Source of the DNA: Deltaproteobacteria bacterium
Lineage (GTDB): Bacteria; Myxococcota_A; UBA796; UBA9615
NCBI GenBank assembly: GCA_023954745.1
Contig: JAGSHC010000005.1
Location: forward strand, 4,550 to 68,549
Direction: 5' to 3'
Length of the DNA stretch: 64,000 nucleotides
Under the pieces are notes generated by a model. It saw only the letters and a list, made by a program, of their open reading frames with translations. It had not been told where the DNA came from and made no database searches. Both the position numbers and the translations under genes were made by a program. This document shows, piece by piece, positions 16,386-41,216 of this stretch (positions are counted from its first letter, which is position 1; each line of letters starts with the position of its first letter).

Positions 16386-16474
16386 CCAGAGGGACGAGAG
16401 GCCTCAGGTTCAACGTGAGCATTGCGGTGCGAACCGCGGCGTCGTGGGCGCGAACCGGGCGGAACTGCCGCGGA

Positions 16475-21369: not shown

Positions 21370-21396
21370 GACGGGTTCGCCTGGAACGGGGGGAGG

Positions 21397-23198: not shown

Positions 23199-24674
23199 TC
23201 ACGGCGAGACGACCAGCGGGTCAGGCACGCCCGGAGCACCAGCAACCGCGGTGAAGCTGCTCGACGGGCCCACGACCCAGAACTGCCTCTCGGGGGACGC
23301 AATGGCGAGCTCCCGGTCCACACCGAGGCCCTGGGGGTCCCACAACAGCGCCAGGCGCACCCGGGGCTCGCCTGGAATCACCCGCACCACGCCATCGCCG
23401 GAGCCAGGCATCGTGCTGACGGAGAGGATGGGAAGCGGGGCGGCGAACTGCCCTCCCCCCGTTCCTCGGAGCATGTAGACCCGACCGTCGTCGTCGGCGC
23501 GCAGTCCCAGGAACAGGTCCGCGACGCCATCCCCGGTGCCATCCCCGAGGTCGATGGAGTCGTAGGCCATGGGCAGCACCGCGCGCACCACTCCGCCGCT
23601 CAGGCCACCGTTGCCATCGCCGATCCACAAGCGGCACTGCGCGGCCACGGCCTCTTCGGCGCAGATCAGGAGGTCCGAAGCCCCATCGAGGTTCACATCG
23701 ATCAGTCGGGGCGCGACGGCCCATCGCTCGCCTGCGGCCACCGCATCGATGGTGATGCTCGTAGTGCGTAGCTGGTACTCCCCGTCGCCTTCGCCGAGGT
23801 GCACGAAGATCGATCCCGCGCCTACGCTGTCGAGGAGCACGCTGACGAGATCCCCCGAACCATCGCCGTCCAGGTCTCCACCGGCGACGACCAGACTTCG
23901 ACTTCCCAAGGAGACCACCTCGTTGATGGGCCCGGTCCAGTCGCCCTCGCACGTCCGGGAGATGGACGCGACGTCGTCCGCATCGGGATCCGAGGGGTCC
24001 ACCTGCTGCCGCATCCATTCCGTCGCTCCGTCGCCGTCGAGGTCCACTGCGATGGCTGAGCCCACCACTCCGGAGGGGACCGGAGCCCCGAGGCCCTGAG
24101 GGTCACCCAGAGCCTCTCCGTCGACCGCCCAGACCCGCAGATCGCCTCCGGGGCCCGCGACGCCCACCCTCGGGGCGAGGTCGGCGGGGACCGGCTCGTC
24201 GGTGAGACCATCGCAGTCGTTGTCGACCCCATCGCACTCCTCGGCCAACTCCGGGGACACGTCGGCGCTCTCGTCGTCGCAGTCCCCTTCGCAGGGCCTC
24301 AGTCCATCGGTGTCGGAGTCGGACTCATCGTCTGGGACAAGCGCGTCGCAGTCGTTGTCGAGGCCATCGCAAAGCTCCGGGGCGCCGTCGAAGATCGTGG
24401 CGTCCTCGTCGTCGCAGTCAACGCAGTCGTGGGCCCCGTCCCCGTCGTCGTCGGCGAGCTCGCTGTCGTCGCCATCGACGAGGCCGTCGCAGTCGTTGTC
24501 CACCCCGTCGCAGACTTCGGGGAGACCGGGCGCGACCGCCGCGCTCGTGTCGTCGCAGTCTCCATCTGTCGGGAGCACGCCGTCCTGGTCACCGTCGATC
24601 GCCTCATCGGGATAGAACGCGTTCGGGGCACATCCCCCCAGAAGCGCGGAGAGCAGAAGGAGGACTCTGATCAT
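23199..24674 (-). CDS. Lipoprotein with MopE-like Cys-rich putative metal-binding repeats (CDGVDNDCDGxxDE) and C-terminal FG-GAP/VCBS-like repeats
   Basis: Lipobox LLSALLGGC. It has five or more copies of DxDxDGxxxxxDCDD...CDGxDNDCDG and several DLDGDGxxD Ca-binding-like repeats. It is translationally coupled (4-nt overlap) to the upstream paralog gene. Confidence 0.6.
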   Translation of the reverse strand: MIRVLLLLSALLGGCAPNAFYPDEAIDGDQDGVLPTDGDCDDTSAAVAPGLPEVCDGVDNDCDGLVDGDDSELADDDGDGAHDCVDCDDEDATIFDGAPELCDGLDNDCDALVPDDESDSDTDGLRPCEGDCDDESADVSPELAEECDGVDNDCDGLTDEPVPADLAPRVGVAGPGGDLRVWAVDGEALGDPQGLGAPVPSGVVGSAIAVDLDGDGATEWMRQQVDPSDPDADDVASISRTCEGDWTGPINEVVSLGSRSLVVAGGDLDGDGSGDLVSVLLDSVGAGSIFVHLGEGDGEYQLRTTSITIDAVAAGERWAVAPRLIDVNLDGASDLLICAEEAVAAQCRLWIGDGNGGLSGGVVRAVLPMAYDSIDLGDGTGDGVADLFLGLRADDDGRVYMLRGTGGGQFAAPLPILSVSTMPGSGDGVVRVIPGEPRVRLALLWDPQGLGVDRELAIASPERQFWVVGPSSSFTAVAGAPGVPDPLVVSP

Positions 24675-25912
24675 CGGACCCGGACCCCTACGTCGAACCC
24701 GCCGCCGGCCGTGAGATGCGGCTTCGCGTCACCGGCGCTGCGGGCACCCACCGGGGAGCTCTCCGACGCAAACGCGTACAGCGCGAGCACCGGTTGCACC
24801 GCCGCCCCGGGCTTCGCCCCCGCGATGCGAACGCCCAGCTCAGGCCCCTGCACAAGGTAGGCGGCCGGGCCGGCGTAGCCGTCGGGAAGCAAAGCAGCTG
24901 CAGCCCCGGCGCCCGCGAAGGACCACGCAAGGAGCGGTCCCAGAGCGATGGGGCCCGCAGGGAATGCAGCGGCGATCTCCAGCCGAACTCCAACCTGTCC
25001 TGCCGGAGGCGCACCTGACGCTCCCCGGAGTCGCTCGCCGCGAGTCACGCCCAACAGGAGCGCCGCGTCGAGGAGAAGCCGCTCGTTGGCGACTCCGAGC
25101 TGTGCCCCCACGAGAAACCTCGCGGAGGCCCCCGCGTTGCCCTGCTGCGCGAACCCCGCGCCTCCTGTCTGGATCATCAGCCCACCAGAGGGTGGCGGCG
25201 GCGCCACGACAGGCGAGGCCTTCTTGGGGGCGGGACTCCGAGCGGGGCGTCGCGTGCGGGCCTTGTCCTCCGACTTGCGCTCGCCATACACCCCCGAGCC
25301 CGACGATTCGACCGAGGGCCGAAGGTCCATCCGCGTCACGCCCTTGGCGACGACCTCGACGATGTGGGCGCCGACCCGATAGCTCCCCACGGGGAGGTAG
25401 ATGGAGGTGGATCCGTCCTCGAGCTCGCTCATTCTCTGGCGCGCGGCTTCGAACGCGCGCTTCAGCTCGGGGTCGAGGAGCGGGGTCGCCGGGGCCGGGC
25501 GAGTTGCCCCCGCCGCCGTGCCCCCGATGATGAGCACCTTGCCGAAACGGCTGGTGAGGAAGTCATGAAACTCCGCGAACTCGGGGTCGAGGCGCGGAGA
25601 GAGAGCCGCCGCCGTCTTGGCCGCCTCGACGGCCCCCGCCAGCTCGCCCAGCGAGTAGCGAGTGCGCGCGATCTGTTCGTGGAGCTCCGCCGCAGCCTGG
25701 CCCTCTGGCAGGAGAGCCGCGGCCTCGAACTCCGCGAGGGCCTGTCGCGCCTGACCCGACTGCAAAAAGAAGCGTCCCTGCGCCATGCGGTGGCCGAAGC
25801 TGCTCGCAGGGGTCGTCGTAGGCTCCTCCTCCTCGGCATGAGCCGAGCCTGGAACGAGCCCGAGGCACAGGGCGGCCAGCGCGAGGCTAGAAGCGGAGCG
25901 CGAGACCCACAT
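24671..25912 (-). CDS. Secreted protein: TPR-like helical N-domain plus Gly/Ala-rich C-domain (paralog 1)
   Basis: Signal peptide MWVSRSASSLALAALCLGLVPGSAHA. It shares the motifs FLQSGQARQALAEFEAA and LPVGSYRVGAHIVEV with the next gene. The start was chosen at the internal ATG, because the longer ORF has a junk-like S/R-rich N-terminus. Confidence 0.5.
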   Translation of the reverse strand: MWVSRSASSLALAALCLGLVPGSAHAEEEEPTTTPASSFGHRMAQGRFFLQSGQARQALAEFEAAALLPEGQAAAELHEQIARTRYSLGELAGAVEAAKTAAALSPRLDPEFAEFHDFLTSRFGKVLIIGGTAAGATRPAPATPLLDPELKRAFEAARQRMSELEDGSTSIYLPVGSYRVGAHIVEVVAKGVTRMDLRPSVESSGSGVYGERKSEDKARTRRPARSPAPKKASPVVAPPPPSGGLMIQTGGAGFAQQGNAGASARFLVGAQLGVANERLLLDAALLLGVTRGERLRGASGAPPAGQVGVRLEIAAAFPAGPIALGPLLAWSFAGAGAAAALLPDGYAGPAAYLVQGPELGVRIAGAKPGAAVQPVLALYAFASESSPVGARSAGDAKPHLTAGGGFDVGVRVR

Positions 25913-27152
25913 CGAGGCCACCTCCGATCCGCAGGAACTGCCGGGTGTCGAGGCCCACGAGCTCCGTGCCGAGTCCGGCGAGGAGGACTCCCTCGGCTCC
26001 AATGAAGCTGCCGCCGACCGCCTCGACCGACGCTCCGATACGAATCCCGACCCGCCGCGGGTCGCCGGCTGGGAGGATGAGCAGGTCGAGCCCGAGCAGT
26101 CCGCCGGCTCCCCCCGTGCCAAGGGCACACTCGCCCAGCCAGCCGTGCCCGGTGGCGGTCTGCAAGGTCTCGCAGCCGACCACCGCGGGGCCGAGGAGCC
26201 CGCCCAGGAACCCCAGGTGGGGGGTCAGCCATGCTCCTCCGCCCAGGCGCACGTCGAGACCCACGTCGAGAATGCCGACAATCTCTGCGCCCACCGACTG
26301 CCGGCCCGGGTTCGTGGGGGAGGTTGGGCTCACCGCGCGGGAGCCGGCCACGCGGGCGCGTCCCTGCACCCGCGCGGGACCCACGTGAACTCCGATGCCG
26401 AAGACCCCGCCCAGTCGCAAGGGAGAGGTGCCGACCGTGCCGCCGGGGATCCCGGTCAGCCCGACGTGGGCGCCCACGAAGAACTCTCGGGGCCCGCCCA
26501 AGGCGACGAAGCCCGCGTCGTCACCGCGCAATGCGCCGGTCTGGAACGGGACGTCCTCAGCGTCGAGCACCAGCGCGAAGGCTTCGCCCGCGGTCACCTC
26601 GAACTCGTGCGAGCCCAGCGAGTAGGTGCCGAAGGGCAGCCACACGGTGGGCTCGGTGAGTCCCTTCCGCCCAGTGCGTTCCACGAGGGCTGCGAGGGTC
26701 TCCTTCTGCTTCGGGTCGATGAGGAAGCCCGTGTGGGCGAGGTCCAGCGGGCGCGTTGGCAGCTCGCGGCCCTCCGGCGCGTACAACAGCAGGCGGCCGT
26801 AGGAGGAATAGAGACGATCCAGTTCAGCCTTTGCCTCACGCTGGGCTTCGTCGCCCAGTACCGAGGCCAGCTCCCACGCGTGGATTGCCAGGCCTACCCG
26901 GCCGGCCTTCTCAGCGGCATTGGCGAGCTTGCTGTGGCAAGGCCGTGAGACCTTGCCCTCCGCGGTGTCGCAGGCCTCCTCGAGGGAATCGGCCGCTTCG
27001 TCGAACTTCCCGAACTGGAACAGCAGGTCGGCCTGCCGACTGAGGAACTCGAAGGACTTCGGTTCCTCTTCCGTGGTCGATTGGGCGGTCGCTCCGTAGG
27101 GGGCCAGAGCCCACGCCAGGAAGCACACCGCGCTCAGGGCACGCAGGGTCAC
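25887..27152 (-). CDS. Secreted protein: TPR-like helical N-domain plus Gly-rich C-domain ending in Phe (paralog 2)
   Basis: A signal peptide, LLFQFGKFDEAADSLEEA, LPFGTYSLGSHEFEV, and a Gly-rich C-terminal half ending ...GLALRF (a C-terminal aromatic as in OM barrels). It lies 6 nt downstream of the short CpaF gene. Confidence 0.5.
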   Translation of the reverse strand: MTLRALSAVCFLAWALAPYGATAQSTTEEEPKSFEFLSRQADLLFQFGKFDEAADSLEEACDTAEGKVSRPCHSKLANAAEKAGRVGLAIHAWELASVLGDEAQREAKAELDRLYSSYGRLLLYAPEGRELPTRPLDLAHTGFLIDPKQKETLAALVERTGRKGLTEPTVWLPFGTYSLGSHEFEVTAGEAFALVLDAEDVPFQTGALRGDDAGFVALGGPREFFVGAHVGLTGIPGGTVGTSPLRLGGVFGIGVHVGPARVQGRARVAGSRAVSPTSPTNPGRQSVGAEIVGILDVGLDVRLGGGAWLTPHLGFLGGLLGPAVVGCETLQTATGHGWLGECALGTGGAGGLLGLDLLILPAGDPRRVGIRIGASVEAVGGSFIGAEGVLLAGLGTELVGLDTRQFLRIGGGLDVGLALRF

Positions 27153-27158
27153 CCGGAC

Positions 27159-28319
27159 TCAGGCCTCTTCGCTGGTCTTCGAGGCGCGCCGGCGATCCCG
27201 CTCGGCACGACGCGCGCGGGCCGCATCGAGCATCTCCTTGGGGAAGCGCAGCCCCGCGAGCTTGATCTGCTCGGCGAAGGACGGCAGACGGCCCGTCGGC
27301 TCCAGGCGTCCCAGGATCTTGCCGTCCTCGTCCTTGCCCTCGGCCTTGAACGTGAAGAGGTCTCGCACCTGGTACTGACCGTCCGCGAGCTCCAAAACCT
27401 CGGTGATGTGGGTGATCTTCCGGCTGCCGTCGTGGAAGCGGGCCTGCTGCACGACCACGTCGAGAGCCATGGCGATCTGACTTCGCAGCGCCCACAGGGG
27501 CAACTCCACGTCGCCCATGAGGCACAGCGTCTCGAGCCGGGACAGCGTCTCCATGGGCGTCGACGCGTGAGTCGTGGACATGGACCCCTTGTGGCCCGAG
27601 ACCATGGCCTGGATCATGTCCAGCGCCTCGCCGGAGCGGACCTCGCCGATGACCACCCGGTCGGGGCGCATCCGCATCGCTGAGCGGAAGAGGTTGCGAA
27701 TCGTGACGGCCCCCCTGCCCTGGCGGTCCGGCGGCCGAGACTCGTAGTAGAGGAGGTGCGGCTTCTGGAGCTGGAGCTCCGTGCTGTCCTCGATGACGAT
27801 GATTCGCTGGTCGTCGGGGATGAACGAGCTCATCACGTTCAGAAGGGAGGTCTTCCCCGAGCCTGTTCCTCCCGCGATGACGATGTTGCACTCGATCTTC
27901 ACGGCGGCGTCGAGGAACTCGGCCGCGGCGGGGGTCATGGACCCGAAGCCCAGCAGCTTCTCTACCGTCAGTGCTTCCCGGAAGAACTTGCGGATGGCGA
28001 TGCAGATGCCCTTGCGGGCGACGGGCGGCATCGTGATGTGCACGCGGCTGCCGTTGGGCAGGCGGGCGTCCAGCAAGGGGCTCTCCCAATCGATCACCCG
28101 CCCGACGTACTGGGCGATGTTCTTCGCGAGAGCAAACACGTGGTCCTCGTGGGCGAACTTCGCGTCCGTCAACTCGAGCTTCCCGCCCCGCTCCACAAAG
28201 ACCTCTTCGGGACCGTTGATGAGGATCTCAGAGACGGAGTTGTCGTCGAGGTGGTGCTGGATGGGCACGAGGTACAGCGCGAGAGTCTGCTCGAAGACGC
28301 TCTCGAGAGTGGCGGTCAT
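27159..28319 (-). CDS. CpaF/TadA-family secretion ATPase, minimal form without an N-terminal regulatory domain
   Basis: Walker A GGTGSGKTS, Asp box, Walker B RIIVIEDSTEL, and a His box GHKGSMSTTHA of the VirB11/CpaF family. Confidence 0.85.
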   Translation of the reverse strand: MTATLESVFEQTLALYLVPIQHHLDDNSVSEILINGPEEVFVERGGKLELTDAKFAHEDHVFALAKNIAQYVGRVIDWESPLLDARLPNGSRVHITMPPVARKGICIAIRKFFREALTVEKLLGFGSMTPAAAEFLDAAVKIECNIVIAGGTGSGKTSLLNVMSSFIPDDQRIIVIEDSTELQLQKPHLLYYESRPPDRQGRGAVTIRNLFRSAMRMRPDRVVIGEVRSGEALDMIQAMVSGHKGSMSTTHASTPMETLSRLETLCLMGDVELPLWALRSQIAMALDVVVQQARFHDGSRKITHITEVLELADGQYQVRDLFTFKAEGKDEDGKILGRLEPTGRLPSFAEQIKLAGLRFPKEMLDAARARRAERDRRRASKTSEEA

Positions 28320-28352
28320 GGTGCTCCTGGAGGTCGGGGGCGCAGCTCGGCG

Positions 28353-29792
28353 TCAGTTGCCGAAGACAGAGCCGCCCTTTTTGCCCCGCATCAACTTGTC
28401 GAGGACCTTCTTCTGCTTGCGACCGAACTGATAACGCTCGTCTTCCTTGTCCGGGAAGATGCGCTGCAGCCGCTCCATCTCTTCGAGGGCTCGGTCGTAG
28501 TTTCCTGCGGACTTCTCCCGCACGTAGGCCAGCTTGAGACGGCGGAACTCCTGGTCGAGCAGACCCTCAGCCTCGGCGATCTTCCGGTCCATCTCGCTGG
28601 CGAAGGCCGGCCAGTTTTCCGGGGGCACGAGCCCGAGCTGGCCCTTGGAGCGCTTCATGAACTCCACAGAGGTCCACAGGTTCTCGTCCGCGATCTGGTA
28701 CTCGCGGAGGTACGTGGAGCCGATGCCAAAGAGCCGCTGGGCCTCGGCGATGATCTCCTGGTCCGTCCGGTCGTTGCGGGGCGGGAGGATGATCTCCTCG
28801 GGCGTCGGGGTCGTCGTGCCCGGGCCCGGCGCCACGGGCGCGGTGCTTGGCTGGGTCAGCGCATAGGCGAACGACAGCAAGATGACGACGGCGGCGCCAA
28901 CCAGCACGACGTTGCGGATGAGGGGGAGGTTCGGCGGAGCCTTCTTGCCCTTCCCCTTTCCGCGGCCCTTCTTCTTCCGCTTCTTCGCGGTGATCACACC
29001 GGAGGAAGACCTGCGCGGGCCGGGAGCGCCCGGGCCCGGGGCCCGGCCTGGCGTCCCCGGCATCCCTGCGGACGAGGGCATCCCGGGAGCGGGAGGCATC
29101 CCCATGGACGAGCGACCCATGTTGGGGGGCATCCCCATCTGGGAGGGCGGACCCTGGGGCGGAACCCCCGGCGGCAGGCCGAACTGCGAGGGCGGGCCCT
29201 GGGGGGGGCCGCCGCGCGGTGGCGGTGGCGGCGCACCGAGGTGCGCGGGGTGCTGGCCGGAGAGGTGCCCGTAGGTGCCGGTCCCGATTCCTCCTGGAGG
29301 GGGCCCGGGAGGAGGCCCGGGGGGCAGTCCTCCGAGGGGGCCGGGAGGGTGCGTGTCCTGGCCACCGTGGGTGGGGCCTTGCTTGACGACGGTCGCCTCA
29401 GCCCCCGGCTTGGGGAGGGGCGCGCCCGCGCGCGAGTCCATCGAGCTCCCGGCGAACGCCACCGTCGCTTCGGGGTCCTGCTTCGCCGCTCCCTCCCGAG
29501 GGATACGCACCCGCAGCGCGATATCGCAGAACGTGATCAAGTCCCCGTCCTGCACGTAGACCCGCTCGATGGGACGGTCATTGAGGTACGTGTGGTTGAC
29601 GGTGCCGAGGTTCTCGAGGACGAGCTGGTCGCCTTGCCAACTCATCTCACACTGCTGGCGGCTCACATGCGGAGAGGACACCTGGAGTTGGCACTGGGAA
29701 CCCCTGCCGACAAGGATCGTGTCCTCGCGGAGGGAATAGGTCTCGCCGACATCTGGGCCGGCGAGGATTTCGACCTGGATCAGTCGCGCCAA
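28353..29792 (-). CDS. FHA domain - PG-rich linker - polyLys - TM - periplasmic domain protein (YscD/PrgH-like topology)
   Basis: An FHA signature (ILVGRGSQCQLQVSSPHVSRQQCEM...LENLGTVNHTYLND), ~150 aa of P/G-rich low complexity, KKRKKKGRGKGKGKK, a TM LIRNVVLVGAAVVILLSFAYAL, and a ~160-aa C-terminal domain. The start is uncertain. I chose an in-frame TTG (L49 of the track ORF), because the upstream 48 codons look non-coding (S/R-rich) and this choice leaves a 73-nt gap to tadC. Confidence 0.6.
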   Translation of the reverse strand: MARLIQVEILAGPDVGETYSLREDTILVGRGSQCQLQVSSPHVSRQQCEMSWQGDQLVLENLGTVNHTYLNDRPIERVYVQDGDLITFCDIALRVRIPREGAAKQDPEATVAFAGSSMDSRAGAPLPKPGAEATVVKQGPTHGGQDTHPPGPLGGLPPGPPPGPPPGGIGTGTYGHLSGQHPAHLGAPPPPPRGGPPQGPPSQFGLPPGVPPQGPPSQMGMPPNMGRSSMGMPPAPGMPSSAGMPGTPGRAPGPGAPGPRRSSSGVITAKKRKKKGRGKGKGKKAPPNLPLIRNVVLVGAAVVILLSFAYALTQPSTAPVAPGPGTTTPTPEEIILPPRNDRTDQEIIAEAQRLFGIGSTYLREYQIADENLWTSVEFMKRSKGQLGLVPPENWPAFASEMDRKIAEAEGLLDQEFRRLKLAYVREKSAGNYDRALEEMERLQRIFPDKEDERYQFGRKQKKVLDKLMRGKKGGSVFGN

Positions 29793-29865
29793 ACTCGTTC
29801 TCGTTGCCTTCGAAGAGTACCAGTGTTCACGCGACCGACGGAAAGCCCGCCGGTGCGCGATCGAG

Positions 29866-30780
29866 CTAGAAGAGCTCGCCCTTCGCGGCTCGTACGATGA
29901 TGCCGCCGAACAGCGTGAGCAAGACCGCACCGACAATGAAGAGCAGCGGCATGATCATCTTGACCGGTGCCTCGCCCGCGAGCTTCTCGGCGCGCTGGCT
30001 CCGCTTGAGGCGGATCGCCTGGGCCTGAATCCGCAGGATGTTCGTCAGAGGAGTACCCATCTGCTCAGCCTGGACCACGGAACTCACCAGGCCTGAGACG
30101 TAGTCCGATGGGATGCGGTCCTTGAGATTGATCAGGGCCTCACGCCGGGTGGTGCCCATCTTCACTTCCTGAAGCACGTACCGCATCTCCTCCACGAGGG
30201 GGCTGTCCGTGGAGTCCTTGTTGACGATGCGCTCGAGCGAACTGTTGAAGTCGAGACCTGCGCCGACGGACAGCGCGAGCACGTCGAGCATGTACGGCAG
30301 GTCCTTGTTGATGGACGTGATCCGCGTCATCACCTGCTCGTCGAGGTACATCACGGGGAAGTAGGCGCCGAACATCGCCGCGACCATGCACAGCGGGATG
30401 CGGGGGCTGCCGGTGACGCTGGTGTTGAAGAAGAACGCCAGTCCAAAGAAGCTCAAGGCGCTCAGGACGCCGAAGGCGAGGTACTCGTCGGGGGTGAAGC
30501 CCCCCATGTAGCCCGCCCGGGCCAGCCGATCCCGCAGGCCGTTGCGCAGATTCGTGATGGGGAGCAGCTCGCCCCAGAACGTGAAGATCTTCAGCGTGCT
30601 GATGAGGATGCGGTAGATGGGCGACTGCGCCATCAACTGCCGGCGCTTGTTCATCAGGTACCCGCGCTCGGGCACCGTGCCCCGATACTCCTCGTCCGGG
30701 AAGAACCCGAGACCGAAGAGGAACACCGCACCAATGGCCAGGAGGCCAGCGACGATGCTCAGCAGGGTGCTTGTGGCCAT
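29866..30780 (-). CDS. TadC-like inner-membrane platform protein (T2SS F family)
   Basis: ~304 aa polytopic membrane protein with a GspF-like cytoplasmic domain, positioned next to tadB. Confidence 0.7.
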   Translation of the reverse strand: MATSTLLSIVAGLLAIGAVFLFGLGFFPDEEYRGTVPERGYLMNKRRQLMAQSPIYRILISTLKIFTFWGELLPITNLRNGLRDRLARAGYMGGFTPDEYLAFGVLSALSFFGLAFFFNTSVTGSPRIPLCMVAAMFGAYFPVMYLDEQVMTRITSINKDLPYMLDVLALSVGAGLDFNSSLERIVNKDSTDSPLVEEMRYVLQEVKMGTTRREALINLKDRIPSDYVSGLVSSVVQAEQMGTPLTNILRIQAQAIRLKRSQRAEKLAGEAPVKMIMPLLFIVGAVLLTLFGGIIVRAAKGELF

Positions 30781-30793: not shown

Positions 30794-31651
30794 CTAGACG
30801 TCCACCGAGACGATCTTGCGAATCATGAAGATCCCGACAATCTCGAAGAGGGCGATGAAGAAGAGGATGATCCAGCCGATGGGGTCCTCCCAGAGGGGCG
30901 AGACCATGAGCGGGTCGACCTTGTAGATGAGCACCGCCATGCCGACGGGCAGCGACCCGAGGACCCAGGCCTGCATGCGGCCCTGAGCGGTCATCGTCTC
31001 GATCTTGTCCTCGAGGCGGCGGATGTCCCGAATCGCCTCGGCGGTGTCCTCGAACACCTGGGGCAAGTTGCCACCGGCGACACGCGCGACCTGCACCGAC
31101 GTGATCACGAGGTCGAGGTTCTTGCTGCGGACCCGCTCGCCCATGTTGTTCATGGCTTCATCGAGCGTCAGGCCCAGCTTGTGCTCCTTGAGCATCAAGC
31201 CGAACTCCTGGGCGATGGGCGGCGCGGTGTTGTCCACGAGGATGCCGATGGCCTGCGGCAGGGTGAGGCCGGCGCGCAGAGAGTTCGACATGGAGATGAG
31301 CGCGTCGGGGATCTGATCTTCGAGCCGCTCCAGGCGCTGTCGCTTCGCCCGGGCGAGGCCGAGCCACGGGAACAGCCCCACCAGAATCGAGACGAGCACG
31401 CCGTTGGCCGGCCCGAGCAGGTAGCTCACGAAGATGAACAAGACCGTCGTGATCGCGATGTGCGTGTAGAAGTACTTCTTCGGGTCGGTGCGCGAGTAGA
31501 TCGCATCCAGCGCCCGGTGCAGCCGCTCCAGATAGGAGCGCTCGAAGCGCTTCCAGCCCGTGATCAGCTCGGGGCCGTTGAGCCAGGCGAGCAGAAACAC
31601 AATCCCGCCAATGGCGAGCCCGATGACGGTGACGATGAGGGACGCGTCCAT
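30794..31651 (-). CDS. TadB-like inner-membrane platform protein
   Basis: ~285 aa with an N-terminal TM, a cytoplasmic GspF-like domain and C-terminal TMs. It has a TAATG overlap with the upstream ATPase gene. Confidence 0.7.
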   Translation of the reverse strand: MDASLIVTVIGLAIGGIVFLLAWLNGPELITGWKRFERSYLERLHRALDAIYSRTDPKKYFYTHIAITTVLFIFVSYLLGPANGVLVSILVGLFPWLGLARAKRQRLERLEDQIPDALISMSNSLRAGLTLPQAIGILVDNTAPPIAQEFGLMLKEHKLGLTLDEAMNNMGERVRSKNLDLVITSVQVARVAGGNLPQVFEDTAEAIRDIRRLEDKIETMTAQGRMQAWVLGSLPVGMAVLIYKVDPLMVSPLWEDPIGWIILFFIALFEIVGIFMIRKIVSVDV

Positions 31652-33528
31652 TAGATGAAGCTCCCGTCGGCGATGATGCCGGAGTTGATGAGGTCCGGGA
31701 TGAAGCTCGGGATGTACCCGGTGAGCACCATTTCCCCGACGATCTTCCCGTTGTCATCGATGCCGCGCTGCTGGAACTTGAAGATGTCCTCGAGCCGAAG
31801 CCGCCCGTCGTCATCGAGGCCCACGCACTCGGTGACATGGGTCACCCGGCGGGTGCCGTCCGAGAAGCGCGACTGCTGCACCACCACATGAATGGCGGCG
31901 GCGATCTGCTCGCGGATTGCCTTTACCGGCAGGTCCATTCCCGCCATGAGCACCATGGTCTCGAGGCGGCTCATCATGTCGGTGGGGGTGTTCGCGTGGC
32001 CCGTAGTGAGGGAGCCGTCGTGACCGGTGTTCATGGCCTGGAGCATGTCCAGGGCCTCTCCCCCGCGGCACTCACCCACGACGATGCGGTCGGGGCGCAT
32101 GCGCAAGGAGTTCTTCACGAGGTCGCGGATCTCGTAGGCCCCCTTCCCTTCGAGGTTGGCGGGTCGGGTCTCGAGGCTGACCACATGGTCCTGAGGCAGT
32201 CGCAGCTCCGCGGCGTCCTCGATGGTGACGATGCGCTCCTTGTTGGGAATGAAGCTGCTCAGGCAGTTGAGCAGTGTCGTCTTCCCGGAGCCGGTGCCGC
32301 CAGAGATGATGATGTTCTTGTGTCCGAGTACGCACTTCTCGAGGAAGCTCGCAATCTGCTGGGTCACCGAGCCGAACCCCACCAAGTCCTGCATGGTGAG
32401 GGACTTCTTGCCGAACTTCCGGATCGTGATGCAGGGGCCCTTGATGGCCAGGGGCGGGATGATCGCGTTGACGCGCGAGCCGTCCTTGAGGCGGGCGTCC
32501 ACTAGCGGTGAACTCTCGTCGATGCGGCGCCCCAGGGGCGTGATGATGCGCTCGATGACCGCCAGGACCGCTTCGTGGCTCGTGAAGGTCTTCCCGGTGA
32601 ACTCGATGTTCCCCGCGCGCTCCACGTAGATCTGGTCCTTGTTGACGACCATGATCTCCGTGATGGAGTCGTCGTCGAGGAAGTCCTCGAGGGGGCCGAG
32701 GCCGAGGGCCTCGTTGAGGACCTCTTTGATGAGCAGCTCGCGGTCGAGGTCGGGCTCAATGTCCGCTTCGAGCTCGGCGATGATGTCGAAGAGGAGGTTC
32801 CGCGCACGCTCGCGAAGGTCCTCTTCGGCCACCTTGTCCATGTCGAGAGTCTTGAGGTCCAGGTACTGGAGCAGGCGGCGGTGGACGCGCCGCTTCAGGT
32901 CGACGGGAGCGGAACGAGCTCCCATCCAGTGGCCCGCGATCTGAGGGCCGTCTGCGTGGGGCTGGTGTCCAGCTGCGACCGGCGCCTGGCCCTGATGCAG
33001 GACGAGGGCCCCGTCGGCGTGGGCCTGCTGCTCGTAGTACTCGGCGGGATACTGCTGTTGCTGCTGGGCGTAGGCCTGGTCGTAGCCCTGCTGCTGCACC
33101 GTCGCCTGGTGGGCGGCCGCTCCGGAGTCGGCGGGAACCTGGCCGTGGGCCTGCTGCTGATAGTACTCCGCCGGATACTCGCCCTGGCCGGCCGCCGCCT
33201 GGGCCCGGTTGTACTCGTCCCATGCCTGGTGAAGCTGCGCTTCGGTGTAGACCGAGAGCACGACGTTGCCGATGCCCACGCGGTCACCCACGTTGAGGAT
33301 CTGCTTGCCGAACACCCGCTCGCCGTTGACGAACGTTCCGTTGGTGGACCGGTCTGTGAGGGTCACGGACTCACCGTTCACGAGGAACTCGGCGTGGTAA
33401 CGCGAGACCTCCATGTAGGGGAGGACGAGTTCGTTGCCGCCCTCACGCCCCGCGCGGATGTGGTCCGTGTCGAAGTCCGACTGGACCTCCCGCTGGCTCT
33501 CCGGATCCCGGTAGACGATGCGGATCAA
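31651..33528 (-). CDS. FHA domain :: CpaF/TadA ATPase fusion with a Gln/Tyr-rich linker
   Basis: An N-terminal FHA (NELVLPYMEVSRYHAEFLVNGESVTLTDRSTNGTFVNGERV), ~90 aa of Q/Y/A low complexity, then a full CpaF core (GGTGSGKTT, IVTIEDAAEL, GHDGSLTTGHA). Confidence 0.85.
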   Translation of the reverse strand: MIRIVYRDPESQREVQSDFDTDHIRAGREGGNELVLPYMEVSRYHAEFLVNGESVTLTDRSTNGTFVNGERVFGKQILNVGDRVGIGNVVLSVYTEAQLHQAWDEYNRAQAAAGQGEYPAEYYQQQAHGQVPADSGAAAHQATVQQQGYDQAYAQQQQQYPAEYYEQQAHADGALVLHQGQAPVAAGHQPHADGPQIAGHWMGARSAPVDLKRRVHRRLLQYLDLKTLDMDKVAEEDLRERARNLLFDIIAELEADIEPDLDRELLIKEVLNEALGLGPLEDFLDDDSITEIMVVNKDQIYVERAGNIEFTGKTFTSHEAVLAVIERIITPLGRRIDESSPLVDARLKDGSRVNAIIPPLAIKGPCITIRKFGKKSLTMQDLVGFGSVTQQIASFLEKCVLGHKNIIISGGTGSGKTTLLNCLSSFIPNKERIVTIEDAAELRLPQDHVVSLETRPANLEGKGAYEIRDLVKNSLRMRPDRIVVGECRGGEALDMLQAMNTGHDGSLTTGHANTPTDMMSRLETMVLMAGMDLPVKAIREQIAAAIHVVVQQSRFSDGTRRVTHVTECVGLDDDGRLRLEDIFKFQQRGIDDNGKIVGEMVLTGYIPSFIPDLINSGIIADGSFI

Positions 33529-33535: not shown

Positions 33536-34789
33536 CTACCACTTCGTCTCCGCCGCATCGTAGATGTCGAGCGTCTCGCGGATCTGCTTGCGCATCTGGC
33601 GACGGTCGGCGTCCAGGAGGACCGGGGTAAGTACGATGATCCCGTCGGTGTCGCCCTTCTGCCAGGAACGGCTGCCGAAGAGCACGCCGATGCCGGGAAT
33701 CTGGGAGAGGCCGGGGAGGCCGGTGATCTGACGCCCGTTGTCGCGTCGGAGGAAGCCGCTGAGCGCGAAGCTCTCGCCCTCGCGGAGCTGCACGTGCGCC
33801 GTGTGGTTCTGGCGGTTGATGGAGGGCACCACGCCGCCGAGCTCGAGCTCGCCGACCGTGCTGAACTCCACCGTGATCTTGAGGTCGATGTCCCCGTCGT
33901 CGTCGATGATGGGGAGCGCCTTCACGAGCAGACCCACGTCCCGCTCGAGGAACGTGCCCACGCCGGTGCCCTGAGCCACCGTCGAGAAGATCAGGGTCTT
34001 GCCGCGCTGGAAGGTCACCTCTTCGCCCGACACCGTCGTGAAGAAGTCCTTGTCGAGCACCCGGCGCACATCCGTGGTGGCGGTGAAGTCGTAGAGGTCG
34101 TCCGGGCGACGGAGGACGTTGCCGGCCTGATCGGTGATGTTTCCGATGCCGAACTGCACGTAGCTCAGGGTGTCCAGAACCAGCGAGATGGGCCCGTTGC
34201 CTGACCAGTCGATGCCGATGTCGTGGTCGCGGTTGCGGTTCACCTCGAGCACCTGGAAGTGCAGCTGGATCTGGGCCTTCCTGACGATGTCCCGCTCGTC
34301 GAGGATCACGAGGCTGTACACGTCCTTGTTGTTGGACGCGACGATCTCCTGCACCCGGGCGAAGTCGTCCCTCCGCTTGACCAGACCGTCGATGACCACC
34401 CTCTCGCCCGAGGTGAGGACCTCGACGCCCGGAATCTCCAGAAGGAGGGTCTCCACGTCGCGGCGCAGCCGCTCCACGTCGCCCAGGACGGTGATGTCGT
34501 AGTCGGTCTCGCCGACCTGCAGGCTGGAGTAGCCGGGACGCAGGGCGAAGATGACGATCTTGTCGCCGTCCTCGTGGCGCTTGGCCTCGATCACCTGGGG
34601 GTTGCCGACGCTGACGGTCTTGATGCGGCCGAGGAAGATCGTGATCGACTCGCCGACCCGCAAGACCTTCTCGATGCCAGCGTGCGCCTCCCCAGGCGTC
34701 GCCAACTGCACCGTCAGTGCCATCAACACGGCGATGAGCACCAGCCCGAGCCGCCGCGCTCCTCCTCCGAACTCGTTGTTCGCCTTCAA
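33536..34789 (-). CDS. Secretin CpaC/RcpA
   Basis: A signal peptide, N-domains and a C-terminal secretin domain (GLPGLSQIPGIGVLFGS...GIIVLTPVLLD). Confidence 0.8.
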   Translation of the reverse strand: MKANNEFGGGARRLGLVLIAVLMALTVQLATPGEAHAGIEKVLRVGESITIFLGRIKTVSVGNPQVIEAKRHEDGDKIVIFALRPGYSSLQVGETDYDITVLGDVERLRRDVETLLLEIPGVEVLTSGERVVIDGLVKRRDDFARVQEIVASNNKDVYSLVILDERDIVRKAQIQLHFQVLEVNRNRDHDIGIDWSGNGPISLVLDTLSYVQFGIGNITDQAGNVLRRPDDLYDFTATTDVRRVLDKDFFTTVSGEEVTFQRGKTLIFSTVAQGTGVGTFLERDVGLLVKALPIIDDDGDIDLKITVEFSTVGELELGGVVPSINRQNHTAHVQLREGESFALSGFLRRDNGRQITGLPGLSQIPGIGVLFGSRSWQKGDTDGIIVLTPVLLDADRRQMRKQIRETLDIYDAAETKW

Positions 34790-34818: not shown

Positions 34819-35679
34819 TCAGCGCCGGCGGCCTCCGGGCGTCAGGATGGTGATTCCCTCGTCGCGCTTCTTCTGGATTCTACGACGTTCCTTCGGCTGG
34901 AAGATGTCCGCGAAGTTCTTGCCACTGAGTTCCATCTCAGTGTTCACGTCTTCCTCGTTCCGCATGGTGATCGAAAGCTCGCCCCGGTCCTGGGCAAACA
35001 CGAGGAGTTCAGCCTCCTCCGGGGTGACGAGCACCGTCACGGTGTCGATCCTCACCCTACCCCCGCGGGCGTTTCCGCCCCCGGTGTCCGCGATGGCGCG
35101 GCCGGTGCCGAGCTGGGCGCCGACGGCGAGTACGGTCACGTTCTGAAGGAGGGTGACCGTCTCCACGTCCCCTTCCCCGGGCTTCTGGAAGGTGCCGAGA
35201 ATGTCGACGTGGTCCTTCGGCCGAAGCAGCCCACCGAAGCTGGTGACGCGGTCCACCGGCAGAGCCAGCGCACGCATCTTCTCCGAGATCACCCGGGAGA
35301 GCTTCGCCTCGCTCTGGGTCGAGGCGAGGTCGGTTGTGAGGATGGGGTCTCCCCGCTTGACGCTGTACGAGGTGGTCTGGCCGATGACGTCATCCGCCAG
35401 GCCCTTCTGCAGGTGGCGCGGCGGTAGGTAGTTCTGCGGGTACTCACGGGTCATGAGCATCGAGCGCTCCAGGACCGTGAAGGCAGGGACATCCTCCTTG
35501 GCGACCAGGATCGGCACCCGCTTGCCGGCGACACCGAGCTCTTCCTTGAGGTTCGCCTTGTAGAGCTGCATCAGCACGACTGCGAGCAGCGCGAGGATTC
35601 CGGAGAACAGCAGGACGATCTTACGATTCACGGTTGCCCTTCCGAGCGGGGGGAGCTGCCCCGCCTCGTCTCGCCGCAT
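34819..35679 (-). CDS. CpaB/RcpC Flp pilus assembly protein (SAF domain)
   Basis: An N-terminal TM, a SAF-like region and a C-terminal CpaB-type domain. It is adjacent to the secretin. Confidence 0.65.
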   Translation of the reverse strand: MRRDEAGQLPPLGRATVNRKIVLLFSGILALLAVVLMQLYKANLKEELGVAGKRVPILVAKEDVPAFTVLERSMLMTREYPQNYLPPRHLQKGLADDVIGQTTSYSVKRGDPILTTDLASTQSEAKLSRVISEKMRALALPVDRVTSFGGLLRPKDHVDILGTFQKPGEGDVETVTLLQNVTVLAVGAQLGTGRAIADTGGGNARGGRVRIDTVTVLVTPEEAELLVFAQDRGELSITMRNEEDVNTEMELSGKNFADIFQPKERRRIQKKRDEGITILTPGGRRR

Positions 35680-35844: not shown

Positions 35845-36858
35845 TCAGGTGCGGTGGTAGACGACGACCGTGCTCGTGACGCTGTTCTCAGCGGACTCTT
35901 CGAGGGAGATGTACGCCTCGCGCCCGTCCTTGAGGAACAGGAACGTGTTTGGCGAGTCCATCTGCTCTTCCATCTTCTCGCGGCCGGCCATGAAGTTCTG
36001 GGAGAGGCCCCAGCCCTCGAGCTCCATCGCCTGCAGGAAGTGATTCTCGGCCTGGTCGATGGACGAAGCGCCCCGGTAGATGTGGATGGAGTAGTCGGCG
36101 TCGCCCAACTCCTGCCCGAACGTGATCAGCCGGAAGCTTCCGCGAGGGCGCGGAATGTCCTCGATGTCGTAGCCGACCCCATCCTGACGCCGCTTCGGCC
36201 GCATGTTCTTGCGGTTGAAGTTTTCGTCGGGCCACACGTTCATGTACTGAGTGCCGCCGTTGGCGTCGTCGGCGAAGGCCACCACGATCTTCGCGTCGCC
36301 CAGGGCAGAGACCTCACCAGTCTTGTCGAAGTTCTCGAAGCGGGTCTTCATGTCGGCAGACCACTCGGCCTCGCCTTCCTTGCCCGTGACGATGGTCGCG
36401 AAGGCGCCCCACTTCTCGCCATCCAGGCGCACGTAGCGCTGGTTGATGAGCTTCTCGGTCTCTTCGATGCGGCGGGCGTGCTCGGCCCGGTCCTTGGCGT
36501 TCTTGACCGTCTTCAGCAGCCGGTCCTTGGTGGCCTGGTCAGCCACCTCGCGGACGTCACCCTTGTACATGTTCTCGTAGTAGTCGAGCAGTGTGTCGAT
36601 GGGCTTGCTGGACCGGTACTGCGTGTAATAGAGGGTGTTGCCGTTGAGGTACACCTCGTTGACGTCCCCGTCCTTCACGCGGGTCTTCATGTAGGCCGGA
36701 ACGCCCTCGAGGGCGCGTCCCAGGTCCATGTACACCTCGGCGGCGGCGGTGGGCGGGCGCGGGGTCATGAAGTGGCCGAAGCCGAACACGCCCACGACGA
36801 GCACGCAGATGAGGACGACGCGGAAGCCGCGAGCGGACAGAGTGCGGAAGACGTTCAT
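35845..36858 (-). CDS. Hypothetical membrane-anchored periplasmic protein with K/E/D/N/Y-rich composition
   Basis: An N-terminal TM (VVLICVLVVGVFGFGHF) and a ~300-aa soluble domain with amino-acid usage unlike the neighbouring genes. I recognise no family. Confidence 0.4.
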   Translation of the reverse strand: MNVFRTLSARGFRVVLICVLVVGVFGFGHFMTPRPPTAAAEVYMDLGRALEGVPAYMKTRVKDGDVNEVYLNGNTLYYTQYRSSKPIDTLLDYYENMYKGDVREVADQATKDRLLKTVKNAKDRAEHARRIEETEKLINQRYVRLDGEKWGAFATIVTGKEGEAEWSADMKTRFENFDKTGEVSALGDAKIVVAFADDANGGTQYMNVWPDENFNRKNMRPKRRQDGVGYDIEDIPRPRGSFRLITFGQELGDADYSIHIYRGASSIDQAENHFLQAMELEGWGLSQNFMAGREKMEEQMDSPNTFLFLKDGREAYISLEESAENSVTSTVVVYHRT

Positions 36859-36871: not shown

Positions 36872-37468
36872 TCAGTACGAAGAGAGCGCGACGGCGGACC
36901 ACGCCATCAACGCGCCCTTGACGGCCATGATCTGGAGGTCGCCATAGGTCTGCTTCTTGTGCCACGTGCCACCCGACACGAAGTGCCGACTCCTCACGTG
37001 GGTGCCGCCAGGCAGCGTGTTGTCGAGGATGGAGTTGGGGGCATAGGTCGCGCCCACCTCGAAACCTCTCGTCTGGCTGGCGAACGAGAGCATGTTGCTC
37101 AGCGACGAGGCCATGTTCAGCGGGCCCGAGCTGGGGAAGCTCGAGTTCGCGGAGCTGGGGTTGGCCGCGGGGTCGAAGGGCGCCAACTCGACGTAGGTCG
37201 GGTTGTGGTCCGTCATCGGGTAGTACGCCTGGGCCCGGCTCATGATCTGGCTGTCTTCGAGGTCCGTCTCGGCGACGCTGGCGGTGGCGGTGGCCATGTA
37301 GCGCGCGGCCATGTGGCAAGTGAGCTTGAGCTCGTATGCCTTACCGAACCACAGGATGCCCTCGATCATCGCGAGCAGGACGAAGACCCAGATGACGAAC
37401 TCCGCCATCGCCTGTCCTCGCTGGCCCTTGCCATCCCGTGCGTCTCGGATTCGTTGAATGGAAAGCAT
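36872..37468 (-). CDS. TadE-like pseudopilin
   Basis: An N-terminal GQAMAEFVIWVFVLLAMIEG TadE motif (G-x4-EF). Confidence 0.6.
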   Translation of the reverse strand: MLSIQRIRDARDGKGQRGQAMAEFVIWVFVLLAMIEGILWFGKAYELKLTCHMAARYMATATASVAETDLEDSQIMSRAQAYYPMTDHNPTYVELAPFDPAANPSSANSSFPSSGPLNMASSLSNMLSFASQTRGFEVGATYAPNSILDNTLPGGTHVRSRHFVSGGTWHKKQTYGDLQIMAVKGALMAWSAVALSSY

Positions 37469-37477
37469 GTCCGTCTC

Positions 37478-39929: not shown

Positions 39930-39943
39930 CTCTGCGCTCCGTC

Positions 39944-40903: not shown

Positions 40904-40973
40904 TTGGGTGTCTCCTTGAGGTCGGTGGCGTTCATGTAGGGAGCGCGGCTCCCCCGGTTGTTGGTTTCGAGGA

Positions 40974-41159: not shown

Positions 41160-41216
41160 GGTCGAGGCTTCTCCCGCTCGATGCCTCGCGTTCAATCGTC
41201 GCGGCGGTCCGAGCAA

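What the first reader, a model, noticed from the sequence alone, without database searches (positions are those of the whole stretch)
27159..28319. Second, minimal CpaF paralog: a possible dedicated retraction or accessory motor
Tad systems normally have a single bifunctional CpaF. Here a 386-aa CpaF paralog lacks any N-terminal regulatory domain but keeps the Walker A, Asp box, Walker B and His box. It sits 3.3 kb downstream of the FHA-fused CpaF in the same operon. Two motors in one Tad locus is reminiscent of the PilB/PilT division of labour.
Basis: inference. Interest (0 to 1): 0.5.

Follow-up and report, generated by a model that had tools for sequence, protein, structure and literature searches.

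The report
Second, stripped-down Tad pilus motor
A pilus gene cluster of an uncultured bacterium encodes, besides its usual motor protein, a second intact motor that lacks the usual front domain; this motor belongs to an old, widespread branch of the family that the papers I searched do not describe, and its job (possibly pulling the pilus back in) is untested.

Summary
Window 27159-28319 (-) is a 386-aa CpaF-family ATPase, 49% identical to the FHA-fused CpaF 3.3 kb upstream, in one tightly packed Tad/Kil-like operon. All catalytic residues and arginine fingers are intact. The protein is not degenerate and not strain-specific. The same FHA-CpaF ... TadB-TadC-FHA(-TPR)-short-CpaF layout recurs in at least 12 further loci. 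The short proteins form a separate clade (100% NJ bootstrap) that lacks the three-helix-bundle (N1) domain. Yen et al. 2025 call that domain part of the minimum CpaF architecture.

It is therefore not a local duplicate but a member of an old N1-less subfamily, also found in Bacteriovoracia, Planctomycetota, Chloroflexota and Sumerlaeota.

The PilB/PilT-like reading is only weakly supported. In the short clade, the residues by which Caulobacter CpaF contacts the platform are relaxed on both faces. These are loop 8, pore-loop E331 and R387. An apparent complementary loss of R387 in the long partner did not survive wider sampling. The second ATPase is present or absent among closely related loci, so it is an accessory module. 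It recurs next to FHA proteins and Ser/Thr kinases.

Verdict: real, conserved, function open; a new variant of a known system.

The parts
27159..28319 (-). Short (386 aa) N1/3HB-less CpaF-family ATPase: the finding
28324..28328 (-). AGGAG Shine-Dalgarno, 4 nt before the ATG of the short ATPase
   Evidence: read from the sequence
27846..27872 (-). Walker A GGTGSGKTS (K156, T157)
27774..27803 (-). Asp box IIVIEDSTEL (E177, D178, E181)
27636..27674 (-). RMRPDR (arginine-finger R218, equivalent to CpaF R347) plus Walker B IGEVR (E226)
   Evidence: PMC12019362
27561..27599 (-). His box SGHKGSMSTTHAS (H243, H251)
28077..28139 (-). Helix alpha5 with the clade-specific NIAQYVG motif, and a non-canonical loop 8 (RVIDWESP)
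27705..27743 (-). Extended pore loop ESRPPDRQGRGAV; the conserved CpaF E331 is replaced by Q
28353..29936 (-). FHA domain, Pro/Gly-rich linker, TM helix and C-terminal domain (YscD/PrgH-like cytoplasmic domain hit); directly upstream of the short ATPase. The true start is probably downstream of the TadC stop.
29866..30780 (-). TadC/CpaH-like platform protein (T2SSF)
30794..31651 (-). TadB/CpaG-like platform protein (T2SSF)
31651..33528 (-). Long FHA-IDR-3HB-NTD-CAD CpaF (KilF-like), with canonical hinge GLGPLE, loop 8 GRRIDESSP and pore loop NLEGKG
33536..34789 (-). Short secretin (CpaC/KilC-like)
34819..35679 (-). CpaB/RcpC
35845..36858 (-). Conserved unknown 337-aa protein of the locus (homologs in L007, L039)
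36872..40001 (-). Three TadE/TadG-like minor-pilin genes (36872-37468, 37478-38965, 38922-40001)
39944..40495 (-). Prepilin peptidase (Peptidase_A24)
40685..41216 (-). Two Flp-type pilin genes (40685-40903 and 40974-41216), both with the G/MTEY processing motif
23199..27152 (-). Three downstream genes in the same orientation: two paralogous secreted TPR/Gly-rich proteins (25887-27152, 24671-26128) and a MopE/FG-GAP protein (23199-24674). The first starts 6 nt after the stop of the short ATPase.

Best explanation
The gene encodes a catalytically competent hexameric secretion-type ATPase of a distinct CpaF subfamily that lacks the three-helix bundle (N1). It is co-transcribed with, and most likely works on, the same Kil-like Tad pilus machine as the neighbouring FHA-CpaF.

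Shown: intact active site and arginine fingers; CpaF fold without N1; fixed operon position after TadB-TadC-FHA(-TPR) in many loci; membership of an old separate clade; presence or absence among close relatives, which marks it as an accessory module.

Inferred: the long FHA-CpaF keeps every canonical extension-face element (hinge, loop 8, pore-loop Glu) and is the extension motor, as KilF is in Myxococcus. The short ATPase has lost N1 and those canonical contacts, so it powers a different step. The most plausible step is pilus retraction, disassembly or machine reset, in the manner of the N1-less PilT/PilU/BfpF motors. It may be docked or gated through the FHA-domain scaffold proteins encoded just upstream, by phosphothreonine signalling.

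Rough confidences for the parts: active ATPase about 0.85; part of this Tad machine about 0.75; retraction-type role about 0.3.
For: Catalytic and inter-subunit residues are invariant in 26 homologs at 55-88% identity and map onto CpaF K287/T288/E312/E357/R217/R223/R347 (PMC12019362). The protein has the CpaF fold and scores E = 1e-98 to CpaF against 1.7e-42 to VirB11 and about 1e-6 to PilT. The operon is tight: RBS present, 6-nt gap to the next gene, no intergenic terminator-like sites. The same layout is seen in the P0034 contig, L003, L004, L005, L007, L009, L011, L039, L070, L088, L090 and L059. The split of the short clade from all other CpaFs has 100/100 bootstrap. The long partner is canonical at the hinge, loop 8 and pore loop, while the short clade is relaxed there. 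N1-less architecture is the rule for dedicated retraction ATPases, which engage the platform by the opposite face (10.64898/2026.02.24.707734). The short clade recurs next to FHA proteins, once with FHA fused directly to it (L090), and next to Ser/Thr kinases (L001; L034).
Against: The short clade does not conserve the Caulobacter retraction-face residues N384/R387 either (R in 13/38; L/V/I in Bacteriovoracia). Its alpha5 on the extension face carries a nearly invariant clade-specific motif (NIAQYVG), so that face is still under constraint. The apparent loss of R387 in long partners did not track the presence of a second ATPase in four further loci. Members of the clade also occur as isolated genes outside Tad loci (L001, L006, L035, L045). 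Retraction of Kil-type pili has not been demonstrated in the papers read. No experiment exists for any member of the clade.
Confidence: 0.4

Rival explanations
1. It is a second extension (assembly) motor: an alternative ATPase that polymerises a different pilin or tip set, or works under other conditions, on the same platform.
For: The locus has two Flp pilins and three TadE/G-like minor pilins. In Planctomycetota and Chloroflexota the short-clade gene sits next to a prepilin peptidase and a TadE-like gene with no other ATPase seen nearby (L054, L015). Helix alpha5 on the extension face is strongly conserved within the clade. Bdellovibrio carries extra tadA paralogs (10.64898/2026.07.08.737194).
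Against: N1 and the hinge glycines, which are required in Caulobacter (G147A/G149A is inactive, PMC11300603), are absent. Loop 8 R206/D208/E209 and pore-loop E331, the predicted platform contacts for extension, are not conserved. The long partner already has all of them.
Confidence: 0.2
2. It is an ATPase with a non-motor or non-pilus job that is merely linked to the locus. Examples are a phospho-regulated switch or remodelling ATPase in the Ser/Thr-kinase/FHA signalling that triggers machine assembly, or an energiser of effector export.
For: The gene is adjacent to a Pkinase gene in two phyla (L001; L034). It is always preceded by FHA or TPR proteins in Kil-like loci. L090 has a direct FHA fusion. 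Both platform-contact faces defined in Caulobacter are relaxed. In Bacteriovoracia the gene is isolated yet 78-100% conserved. The T6SS Fha1/PpkA/ClpV system offers an analogy (my own knowledge; PMC8460266 discusses the FHA cascade).
Against: The closest relatives by far are pilus motors. The gene repeatedly co-occurs with secretin, prepilin peptidase and TadE genes in several phyla. The beta13-beta14 turn and C-terminal motif, which face the platform in the inversion model, are well conserved.
Confidence: 0.2
3. It is a partner or modulator of the long ATPase, acting through mixed hexamers or stacked rings that tune KilF-like activity, rather than an independent motor.
For: The two genes are co-transcribed. 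All inter-subunit arginine fingers and D215 are retained in both proteins. The short protein keeps a remnant of the last N1 helix (aa 5-16).
Against: The proteins are only 49% identical and belong to clades separated since before the phyla diverged. Members of the clade exist without any long partner nearby. I know of no precedent for mixed hexamers in this ATPase family.
Confidence: 0.1
4. It is a decaying or functionless duplicate.
For: The second ATPase is absent from some closely related Kil-like loci (L089, L091).
Against: Every catalytic motif is invariant, and 120 database clusters at 50-100% identity have lengths of mostly 360-390 aa. The reading frame is intact with an RBS. Bacteriovoracia homologs are 78-100% identical across genera.
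Confidence: 0.02

Closest known systems
Caulobacter crescentus CpaF (TadA), PDB 8rjf/8rkd/9e24
   Same: Best sequence match (E = 1e-98, about 50% identity over NTD+CAD) and best fold match (TM 0.76-0.77). Same Walker A/B, Asp and His boxes, arginine fingers, beta13-beta14 turn and C-terminal motif. Encoded in a tad locus.
   Different: No IDR and no 3HB (N1). Hinge G147/G149, loop 8 R206/D208/E209, pore-loop E331, N384 and R387 are not conserved in the clade. Clade-specific states include N198, A200, D329, S372 and GKT-S. Yen et al. list three CpaF architectures, all with the 3HB, and 3HB truncations were not expressed in Caulobacter (PMC12019362).
Myxococcus xanthus Kil system (KilF, KilC, KilB, KilG/H, KilD)
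   Same: The window locus has an FHA-fused CpaF, a short secretin, CpaB, two T2SSF platform proteins, several FHA proteins, Flp and minor pilins. The nearest named relatives of the long ATPase are Cystobacterineae KilF orthologs.
   Different: Kil is described as having a single ATPase and two separate gene clusters (PMC8460266). Here everything is in one locus and a second, N1-less ATPase follows the FHA gene. A role in predation is unknown for this organism.
PilT / PilU / BfpF retraction ATPases of type IVa/IVb pili
   Same: Two-domain (N2D+CTD) hexameric ATPases without the N1 domain of the extension motor. They are encoded alongside an N1-bearing extension ATPase.
   Different: They are only distantly related (E about 1e-6; TIGR01420 scores 47 bits against a cut-off of 319). 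The short protein descends from the CpaF/Tad lineage, not from PilT. No retraction evidence exists.
Bdellovibrio bacteriovorus extra tadA paralogs (tadA2, isolated tadA3) and TadZA
   Same: This is a precedent for several TadA-family genes in one predator genome. Bacteriovoracia carry an isolated N1-less member that groups with the short clade (10.64898/2026.07.08.737194).
   Different: Those paralogs lie outside the main tad operon, and tadA2 is dispensable. I could not test whether tadA3 is the N1-less type. The main Bdellovibrio motor is a TadZ-TadA fusion.
VirB11/TrbB type IV secretion ATPases
   Same: Similar size, no N1 domain, and shared AG-x-TGSGKT and SGHGGS states. VirB11 attached weakly to the short clade in the rooted NJ tree (bootstrap 57).
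   Different: Much weaker similarity than to CpaF (E = 1.7e-42). The score is below the VirB11 and TrbB model cut-offs, and the long paralog scores no lower than the short one on these models (VirB11 about equal, TrbB higher). No T4SS genes are nearby.

Membership tests
CpaF/TadA family (Tad pilus motor ATPases) | T2SSE ATPase core with Walker A, Asp box, Walker B and His box, plus NTD/CAD arginine fingers | tested here: met
CpaF/TadA family (Tad pilus motor ATPases) | Closest sequence and fold relative is CpaF, rather than VirB11, FlaI or PilT | tested here: met
CpaF/TadA family (Tad pilus motor ATPases) | Three-helix bundle (N1), stated to be part of the minimum architecture (PMC12019362) | tested here: not met
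   The ORF cannot be extended. The alignment starts at CpaF residue 150. The AF2 model has one helix before the NTD.
CpaF/TadA family (Tad pilus motor ATPases) | Conserved platform-contact residues (hinge G147/G149, loop 8 G204/R205/R206/D208, pore loop E331/G334) | tested here: not met
   G204 and G334 are kept. The hinge glycines, R206, D208, E209 and E331 are relaxed in the clade.
CpaF/TadA family (Tad pilus motor ATPases) | Encoded in a tad locus with TadB/TadC, CpaB, secretin, Flp and prepilin peptidase | tested here: met
CpaF/TadA family (Tad pilus motor ATPases) | Hexamer with ATPase activity that drives pilus dynamics | not testable with these tools
   Needs biochemistry and genetics.
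PilT/PilU-type retraction ATPases | Sequence membership (TIGR01420 pilT_fam) | tested here: not met
   47.3 bits against a cut-off of 319.1
PilT/PilU-type retraction ATPases | N1-less two-domain architecture alongside an N1-bearing extension motor | tested here: met
   (analogy of architecture only)
PilT/PilU-type retraction ATPases | Conserved platform-binding surface on the C-terminal face (AIRNLIRE in PilT; P386/R387, the beta13-beta14 turn and the C-terminal motif in CpaF) | tested here: inconclusive
   The beta13-beta14 turn and C-terminal motif are conserved, but R387 and N384 are not.
PilT/PilU-type retraction ATPases | Required for retraction but not for assembly | not testable with these tools
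   Needs a deletion mutant and pilus imaging.
VirB11/TrbB T4SS ATPases | Score above the family cut-off, and T4SS gene context | tested here: not met
   TIGR02788 scores 221.7 against a cut-off of 249.95 and TrbB scores 195 against 304.55. The neighbours are tad genes.
Kil system of Myxococcus (Tad-like killing apparatus) | FHA-fused motor ATPase, FHA-rich accessory genes, short secretin, CpaB and two platform proteins | tested here: met
Kil system of Myxococcus (Tad-like killing apparatus) | Single ATPase; genes split into two clusters (PMC8460266) | tested here: not met
   Two ATPases in one contiguous locus.
Kil system of Myxococcus (Tad-like killing apparatus) | Contact-dependent prey killing | not testable with these tools
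   Uncultured MAG.

The most novel reading that the evidence does not exclude
The Tad/Epd lineage is currently defined by one bifunctional ATPase, proposed in a 2026 preprint to work by inverting on the platform. In this reading, that lineage has independently evolved a two-motor arrangement. An N1-bearing FHA-CpaF extends the pilus. An N1-less CpaF-derived hexamer, recruited through FHA/phosphothreonine scaffolds, retracts or resets it. This would be a convergent counterpart of PilB/PilT, present in Kil-like machines and in other phyla.
Probability: 0.25. Interest if true: 0.8.

Novelty: new variant of a known kind. Interest (0 to 1): 0.55.

Why it matters
How a Tad pilus both extends and retracts with one ATPase is an active question. 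Competing structural models were published in 2024-2026, and the latest proposes that CpaF flips over on the platform. A naturally occurring, conserved CpaF-type motor that lacks N1 would be a ready-made test case. In that model, N1 is the domain whose steric clash with the platform N-termini promotes the switch from the extension to the retraction orientation. Such a motor sitting beside a full-length one would show whether the two activities can be separated onto two proteins in this lineage.

The finding also shows that the published three-class view of CpaF architecture is incomplete. It adds an unrecognised component to Kil-like machines related to the Myxococcus prey-killing apparatus. 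Members of the same N1-less clade are very highly conserved in culturable predators (Bacteriovorax, Halobacteriovorax), which makes experiments feasible.

Tried and rejected
1. Complementary degeneration test. The long partners in two-ATPase loci seemed to have lost R387, whose R387A mutation stops visible retraction in Caulobacter. R was found in 2/8 co-resident long paralogs and 7/58 in the window's clade, against 48/62 in more distant KilF-like proteins. I rejected this as evidence for three reasons. Most of the 48 R sequences come from one Cystobacterineae lineage. Of four further loci, only L088 fitted. L090 keeps R although it has a second ATPase, and L089 and L091 lack R although no second ATPase is in the operon.

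3. Rooting with FlaI, archaeal GspE and VirB11 fragments taken from PDB alignments. The canonical clade is monophyletic at 67% and short+VirB11 at 57%. I treat the root position as unresolved, because long-branch attraction is possible and the method was NJ with a simple distance correction.

4. No NCBIfam or Pfam model is specific for the clade. All equivalog models scored below their cut-offs.

5. The gene downstream of the short ATPase is conserved only within the window's own clade: 35% identity to the L005 gene and 10-16% to the L003 and L004 genes. It says nothing about function.

6. The TPR gene that precedes the short ATPase in L003 and L004 has no counterpart in the window's FHA-TM protein. 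The FHA-TM protein itself is orthologous to L003's FHA protein.

7. Literature searches for a second Kil/Tad ATPase found no description of one. MXAN_4647 returned nothing.
Full report
OBSERVATION. The ORF at 27159-28319 on the minus strand starts with ATG and encodes 386 aa. It is the longest ORF possible in that frame, so no N-terminal domain can be hidden upstream. It matches Pfam T2SSE at E = 8.8e-52. It is 49% identical over 345 residues to the ATPase part of the 625-aa FHA-CpaF at 31651-33528. Its best solved relative is Caulobacter CpaF at E = 1e-98. VirB11 scores 1.7e-42 and PilT about 1e-6. The alignment begins at CpaF residue 150, which is after the disordered region and the three-helix bundle.

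An AlphaFold2 model built on 26 homologs has mean pLDDT 88.7. It shows one helix (aa 5-16) before the NTD beta-strands and no helical bundle. Its best fold matches are CpaF 8rjf/9e24 at TM 0.76-0.77. An AGGAG lies 4 nt before the ATG. The next gene starts 6 nt after the stop. No terminator-like site falls between genes.

THE LOCUS. On the minus strand, from 41216 down to 23199, the genes are as follows:
- two Flp pilins
- a prepilin peptidase
- three TadE/TadG-like genes
- an unknown 337-aa gene
- CpaB
- a short secretin
- FHA-CpaF
- TadB and TadC
- an FHA-TM protein
- the short ATPase
- two paralogous secreted TPR/Gly-rich proteins
- a MopE/FG-GAP protein

After these come rnc, a radical-SAM gene, era and der. 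The locus is a complete Tad system of the Kil type. The nearest named relatives of the long ATPase are KilF orthologs of Cystobacter, Archangium and Hyalangium. The Archangium locus reads KilA-KilC-KilF-KilD, as in Myxococcus (PMC8460266). The window protein is identical to a 'CpaF family protein' of a Deltaproteobacteria MAG.

IS IT DEGENERATE OR STRAIN-SPECIFIC? Neither. In 26 homologs at 55-88% identity, the following are all invariant (residue roles from PMC12019362):
- the Walker A lysine and threonine
- the Asp-box acidic residues
- the Walker B glutamate
- both His-box histidines
- the equivalents of CpaF arginine fingers R217, R223 and R347

The equivalent of D215 (D84) is nearly invariant, present in at least 90% of the 26.

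The protein database holds 120 listed clusters at 50-100% identity, almost all 360-390 aa long.

Genomic context was read for relatives at 57-73% identity. The P0034 contig, L003, L004 and L005 all show CpaB-secretin-FHA-CpaF-TadB-TadC-FHA(-TPR)-short ATPase. The same pairing is seen in L007, L009, L011, L039 and L070 (Polyangia and other Myxococcota MAGs), in L059, and in L088. In L090, the second ATPase at that position has an FHA domain fused directly to the N1-less core. I take this to mean they lie on the same contig; this is an inference.

WHAT KIND OF CpaF IS IT? A neighbour-joining tree of 119 ATPase cores separates 38 N1-less proteins from 81 others with 100/100 bootstrap. The 81 include every long partner, the Bdellovibrio TadZ-TadA fusions and Caulobacter CpaF. 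The long partners group with other FHA-type CpaFs. The two genes of one locus are therefore not recent duplicates.

The N1-less clade contains members from these groups:
- Myxococcota
- Bradymonadales (Persicimonas)
- Bacteriovoracia/Bdellovibrionales
- Planctomycetota
- Chloroflexota
- Sumerlaeota

I added outgroup fragments of FlaI, archaeal GspE and VirB11. The canonical CpaFs were then monophyletic in 67% of replicates, and VirB11 attached weakly to the short clade (57%). The position of the root is unresolved. The method was NJ with a simple distance correction, so the deep order should not be over-read.

Yen et al. (PMC12019362) sorted 292 CpaF orthologs into three architectures, all containing the 3HB. 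They called 3HB-NTD-CAD the minimum, and Caulobacter constructs without the 3HB were not expressed. The clade found here falls outside that scheme. I found no paper describing it. A 2026 preprint mentions dispensable or isolated tadA paralogs in Bdellovibrio without characterising them.

SEQUENCE TESTS OF THE MOTOR HYPOTHESIS. I mapped the clade onto the elements defined in Caulobacter. The extension face consists of the hinge G147/G149, helix alpha5, loop 8 (R205, R206, D208) and the pore loop (E331-G334) (PMC11300603, PMC12019362). The retraction face consists of P386/R387, the beta13-beta14 turn and the C-terminal motif (10.64898/2026.02.24.707734).

The long partner is canonical at every extension-face element. 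In the short clade the hinge glycines, R206, D208, E209 and E331 are not conserved. On the other face, N384 and R387 are not conserved either. The beta13-beta14 turn and the C-terminal motif are conserved. Helix alpha5 is nearly invariant but carries different residues (NIAQYVG; R198 to N, V200 to A). The short ATPase is therefore unlikely to contact the platform the way Caulobacter CpaF does in either orientation. One of its surfaces has been re-specified rather than lost.

A tempting result was that long partners often lack R387. R was present in 2/8 co-resident long paralogs. It was present in 7/58 of the window's clade, against 48/62 in more distant KilF-like proteins. On inspection, most of the R-bearing set is one Cystobacterineae lineage. 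Four additional loci gave one case that fits (L088) and three that do not (L089, L090, L091). I do not count this as support.

CONTEXT CLUES.
- The second ATPase is present in L090 but absent from the closely related L091, and it is also absent from L089. It is therefore an accessory module rather than a core part.
- In Kil-like loci it always follows FHA or FHA/TPR proteins, which resemble KilD and the PrgH/YscD-like FHA proteins of the Myxococcus clusters.
- Outside such loci, it is followed by a Ser/Thr kinase in a 7.5-Mb genome (L001, unnamed record; its short ATPase clusters with a Persicimonas homolog) and in a Pirellulaceae MAG.
- It is followed by a prepilin peptidase and a TadE-like gene in Phycisphaeraceae and Anaerolineaceae MAGs.
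- It stands alone after a cupredoxin-like ORF in Bacteriovoracia. There, homologs from Bacteriovorax stolpii to Halobacteriovorax marinus are 78-100% identical to the query.
- That Bacteriovoracia branch keeps more canonical motifs (GRRID, GKTT, GHDGS) but also lacks N1 and R387.

INTERPRETATION. Three things are shown. This is an intact CpaF-type ATPase without N1. It is conserved as the last cytoplasmic component of a subset of Kil-like Tad operons. It belongs to an old separate subfamily.

The rest is inferred. The protein probably acts on the same machine in a step other than canonical extension. Retraction or reset is the most economical guess, because N1-less hexamers are the retraction motors elsewhere in the superfamily. 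Docking or gating through FHA/phosphothreonine interactions is plausible.

The rivals are a second assembly motor, a signalling or secretion ATPase, and a modulator of the long ATPase. They cannot be excluded with sequence data. A dead duplicate is excluded by the conservation.

CAVEATS. Gene calls in fetched loci are longest-ORF calls, or the collection's own calls. Contexts cover only +/-10 kb, so 'no second ATPase' means not in the locus. Almost all sequences come from MAGs. Counts of sequences are not counts of independent events.

NOVELTY AND SCORE. The system is a known kind (Tad/Kil pilus machine) in a variant not described in the papers I could search. It carries a conserved second motor from an uncharacterised 3HB-less CpaF subfamily. 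It bears directly on the current debate about how Tad pili retract, but it has no functional evidence yet. Interest 0.55.

Noticed in passing
L090:18039-19490 (+): The second ATPase of a Kil-like locus has an FHA domain fused directly to an N1-less CpaF core (483 aa). FHA ends near aa 87 and T2SSE starts at aa 127, leaving no room for a 3HB. It groups with the short clade (98% of replicates).
   Followed up: partly
L001:11187-13271 and L034:3324-5249: A Ser/Thr protein kinase gene lies immediately downstream of an N1-less CpaF in two loci: L001 (7.5-Mb genome, unnamed record) and a Pirellulaceae MAG. In L034 a secretin follows. L088 also has two kinase genes next to its flp gene.
   Followed up: partly
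window 40685-40903 and 40974-41216 (-): Two tandem Flp-type pilin genes, both with the G/MTEY processing motif. Only the first is recognised by Pfam, and weakly.
   Followed up: partly
window 28353-29936 (-): The FHA protein has a Pro/Gly-rich low-complexity linker of about 200 aa, one TM helix and a C-terminal domain. It also hits the T3SS YscD/PrgH cytoplasmic-domain model. The listed ORF start overlaps TadC by 70 nt, so the real start is probably later.
   Followed up: partly
window 25887-27152 and 24671-26128 (-): Two paralogous proteins (phmmer E = 2e-9) with a signal peptide, an N-terminal TPR-like region and a Gly/Ala-rich C-terminal half. The first ends in ...LALRF, which resembles an outer-membrane beta-barrel terminus. 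No family match. The listed ORFs overlap by about 240 nt, so the start of the second is probably internal.
   Followed up: no
window 23199-24674 (-): A lipoprotein-like protein with three MopE-type Cys/Asp-rich metal-binding motifs and FG-GAP repeats closes the operon. A larger homolog occupies the same place on the P0034 contig.
   Followed up: no
window 18746-23186 (-): The rnc, radical-SAM, era and der genes lie directly downstream of the Tad locus. The same synteny is kept in relatives at 72-73% identity (L005 and the P0034 contig).
   Followed up: no
window 41308-41919 (-); L091:13489-13824: A DUF192 gene sits next to the Flp genes in the window. Another DUF192 gene sits between TadC and the FHA gene in L091. 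This is a possible recurrent accessory of these loci.
   Followed up: no
L019:8473-11068; L085:2246-3718 and 9548-11074; L051:9668-11110 and 16250-17395: Other Tad-type loci (Anaerolineales, Pseudarthrobacter, a Chloroflexi MAG) also carry two CpaF genes of the canonical clade. The 'one ATPase per Tad locus' rule therefore has further exceptions. The second gene of L051 is short (381 aa) but is not in the N1-less clade.
   Followed up: no
P0121-P0128: Several database representatives of 800-1600 aa contain two to four CpaF-like stretches in one predicted protein. They may be tandem fusions or gene-calling or assembly artefacts.
   Followed up: no
L035:9566-9988 and L045:8940-9380: In Bacteriovoracia and Bdellovibrionales, the isolated N1-less CpaF gene is preceded in both loci by a small cupredoxin-like ORF.
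   Followed up: no
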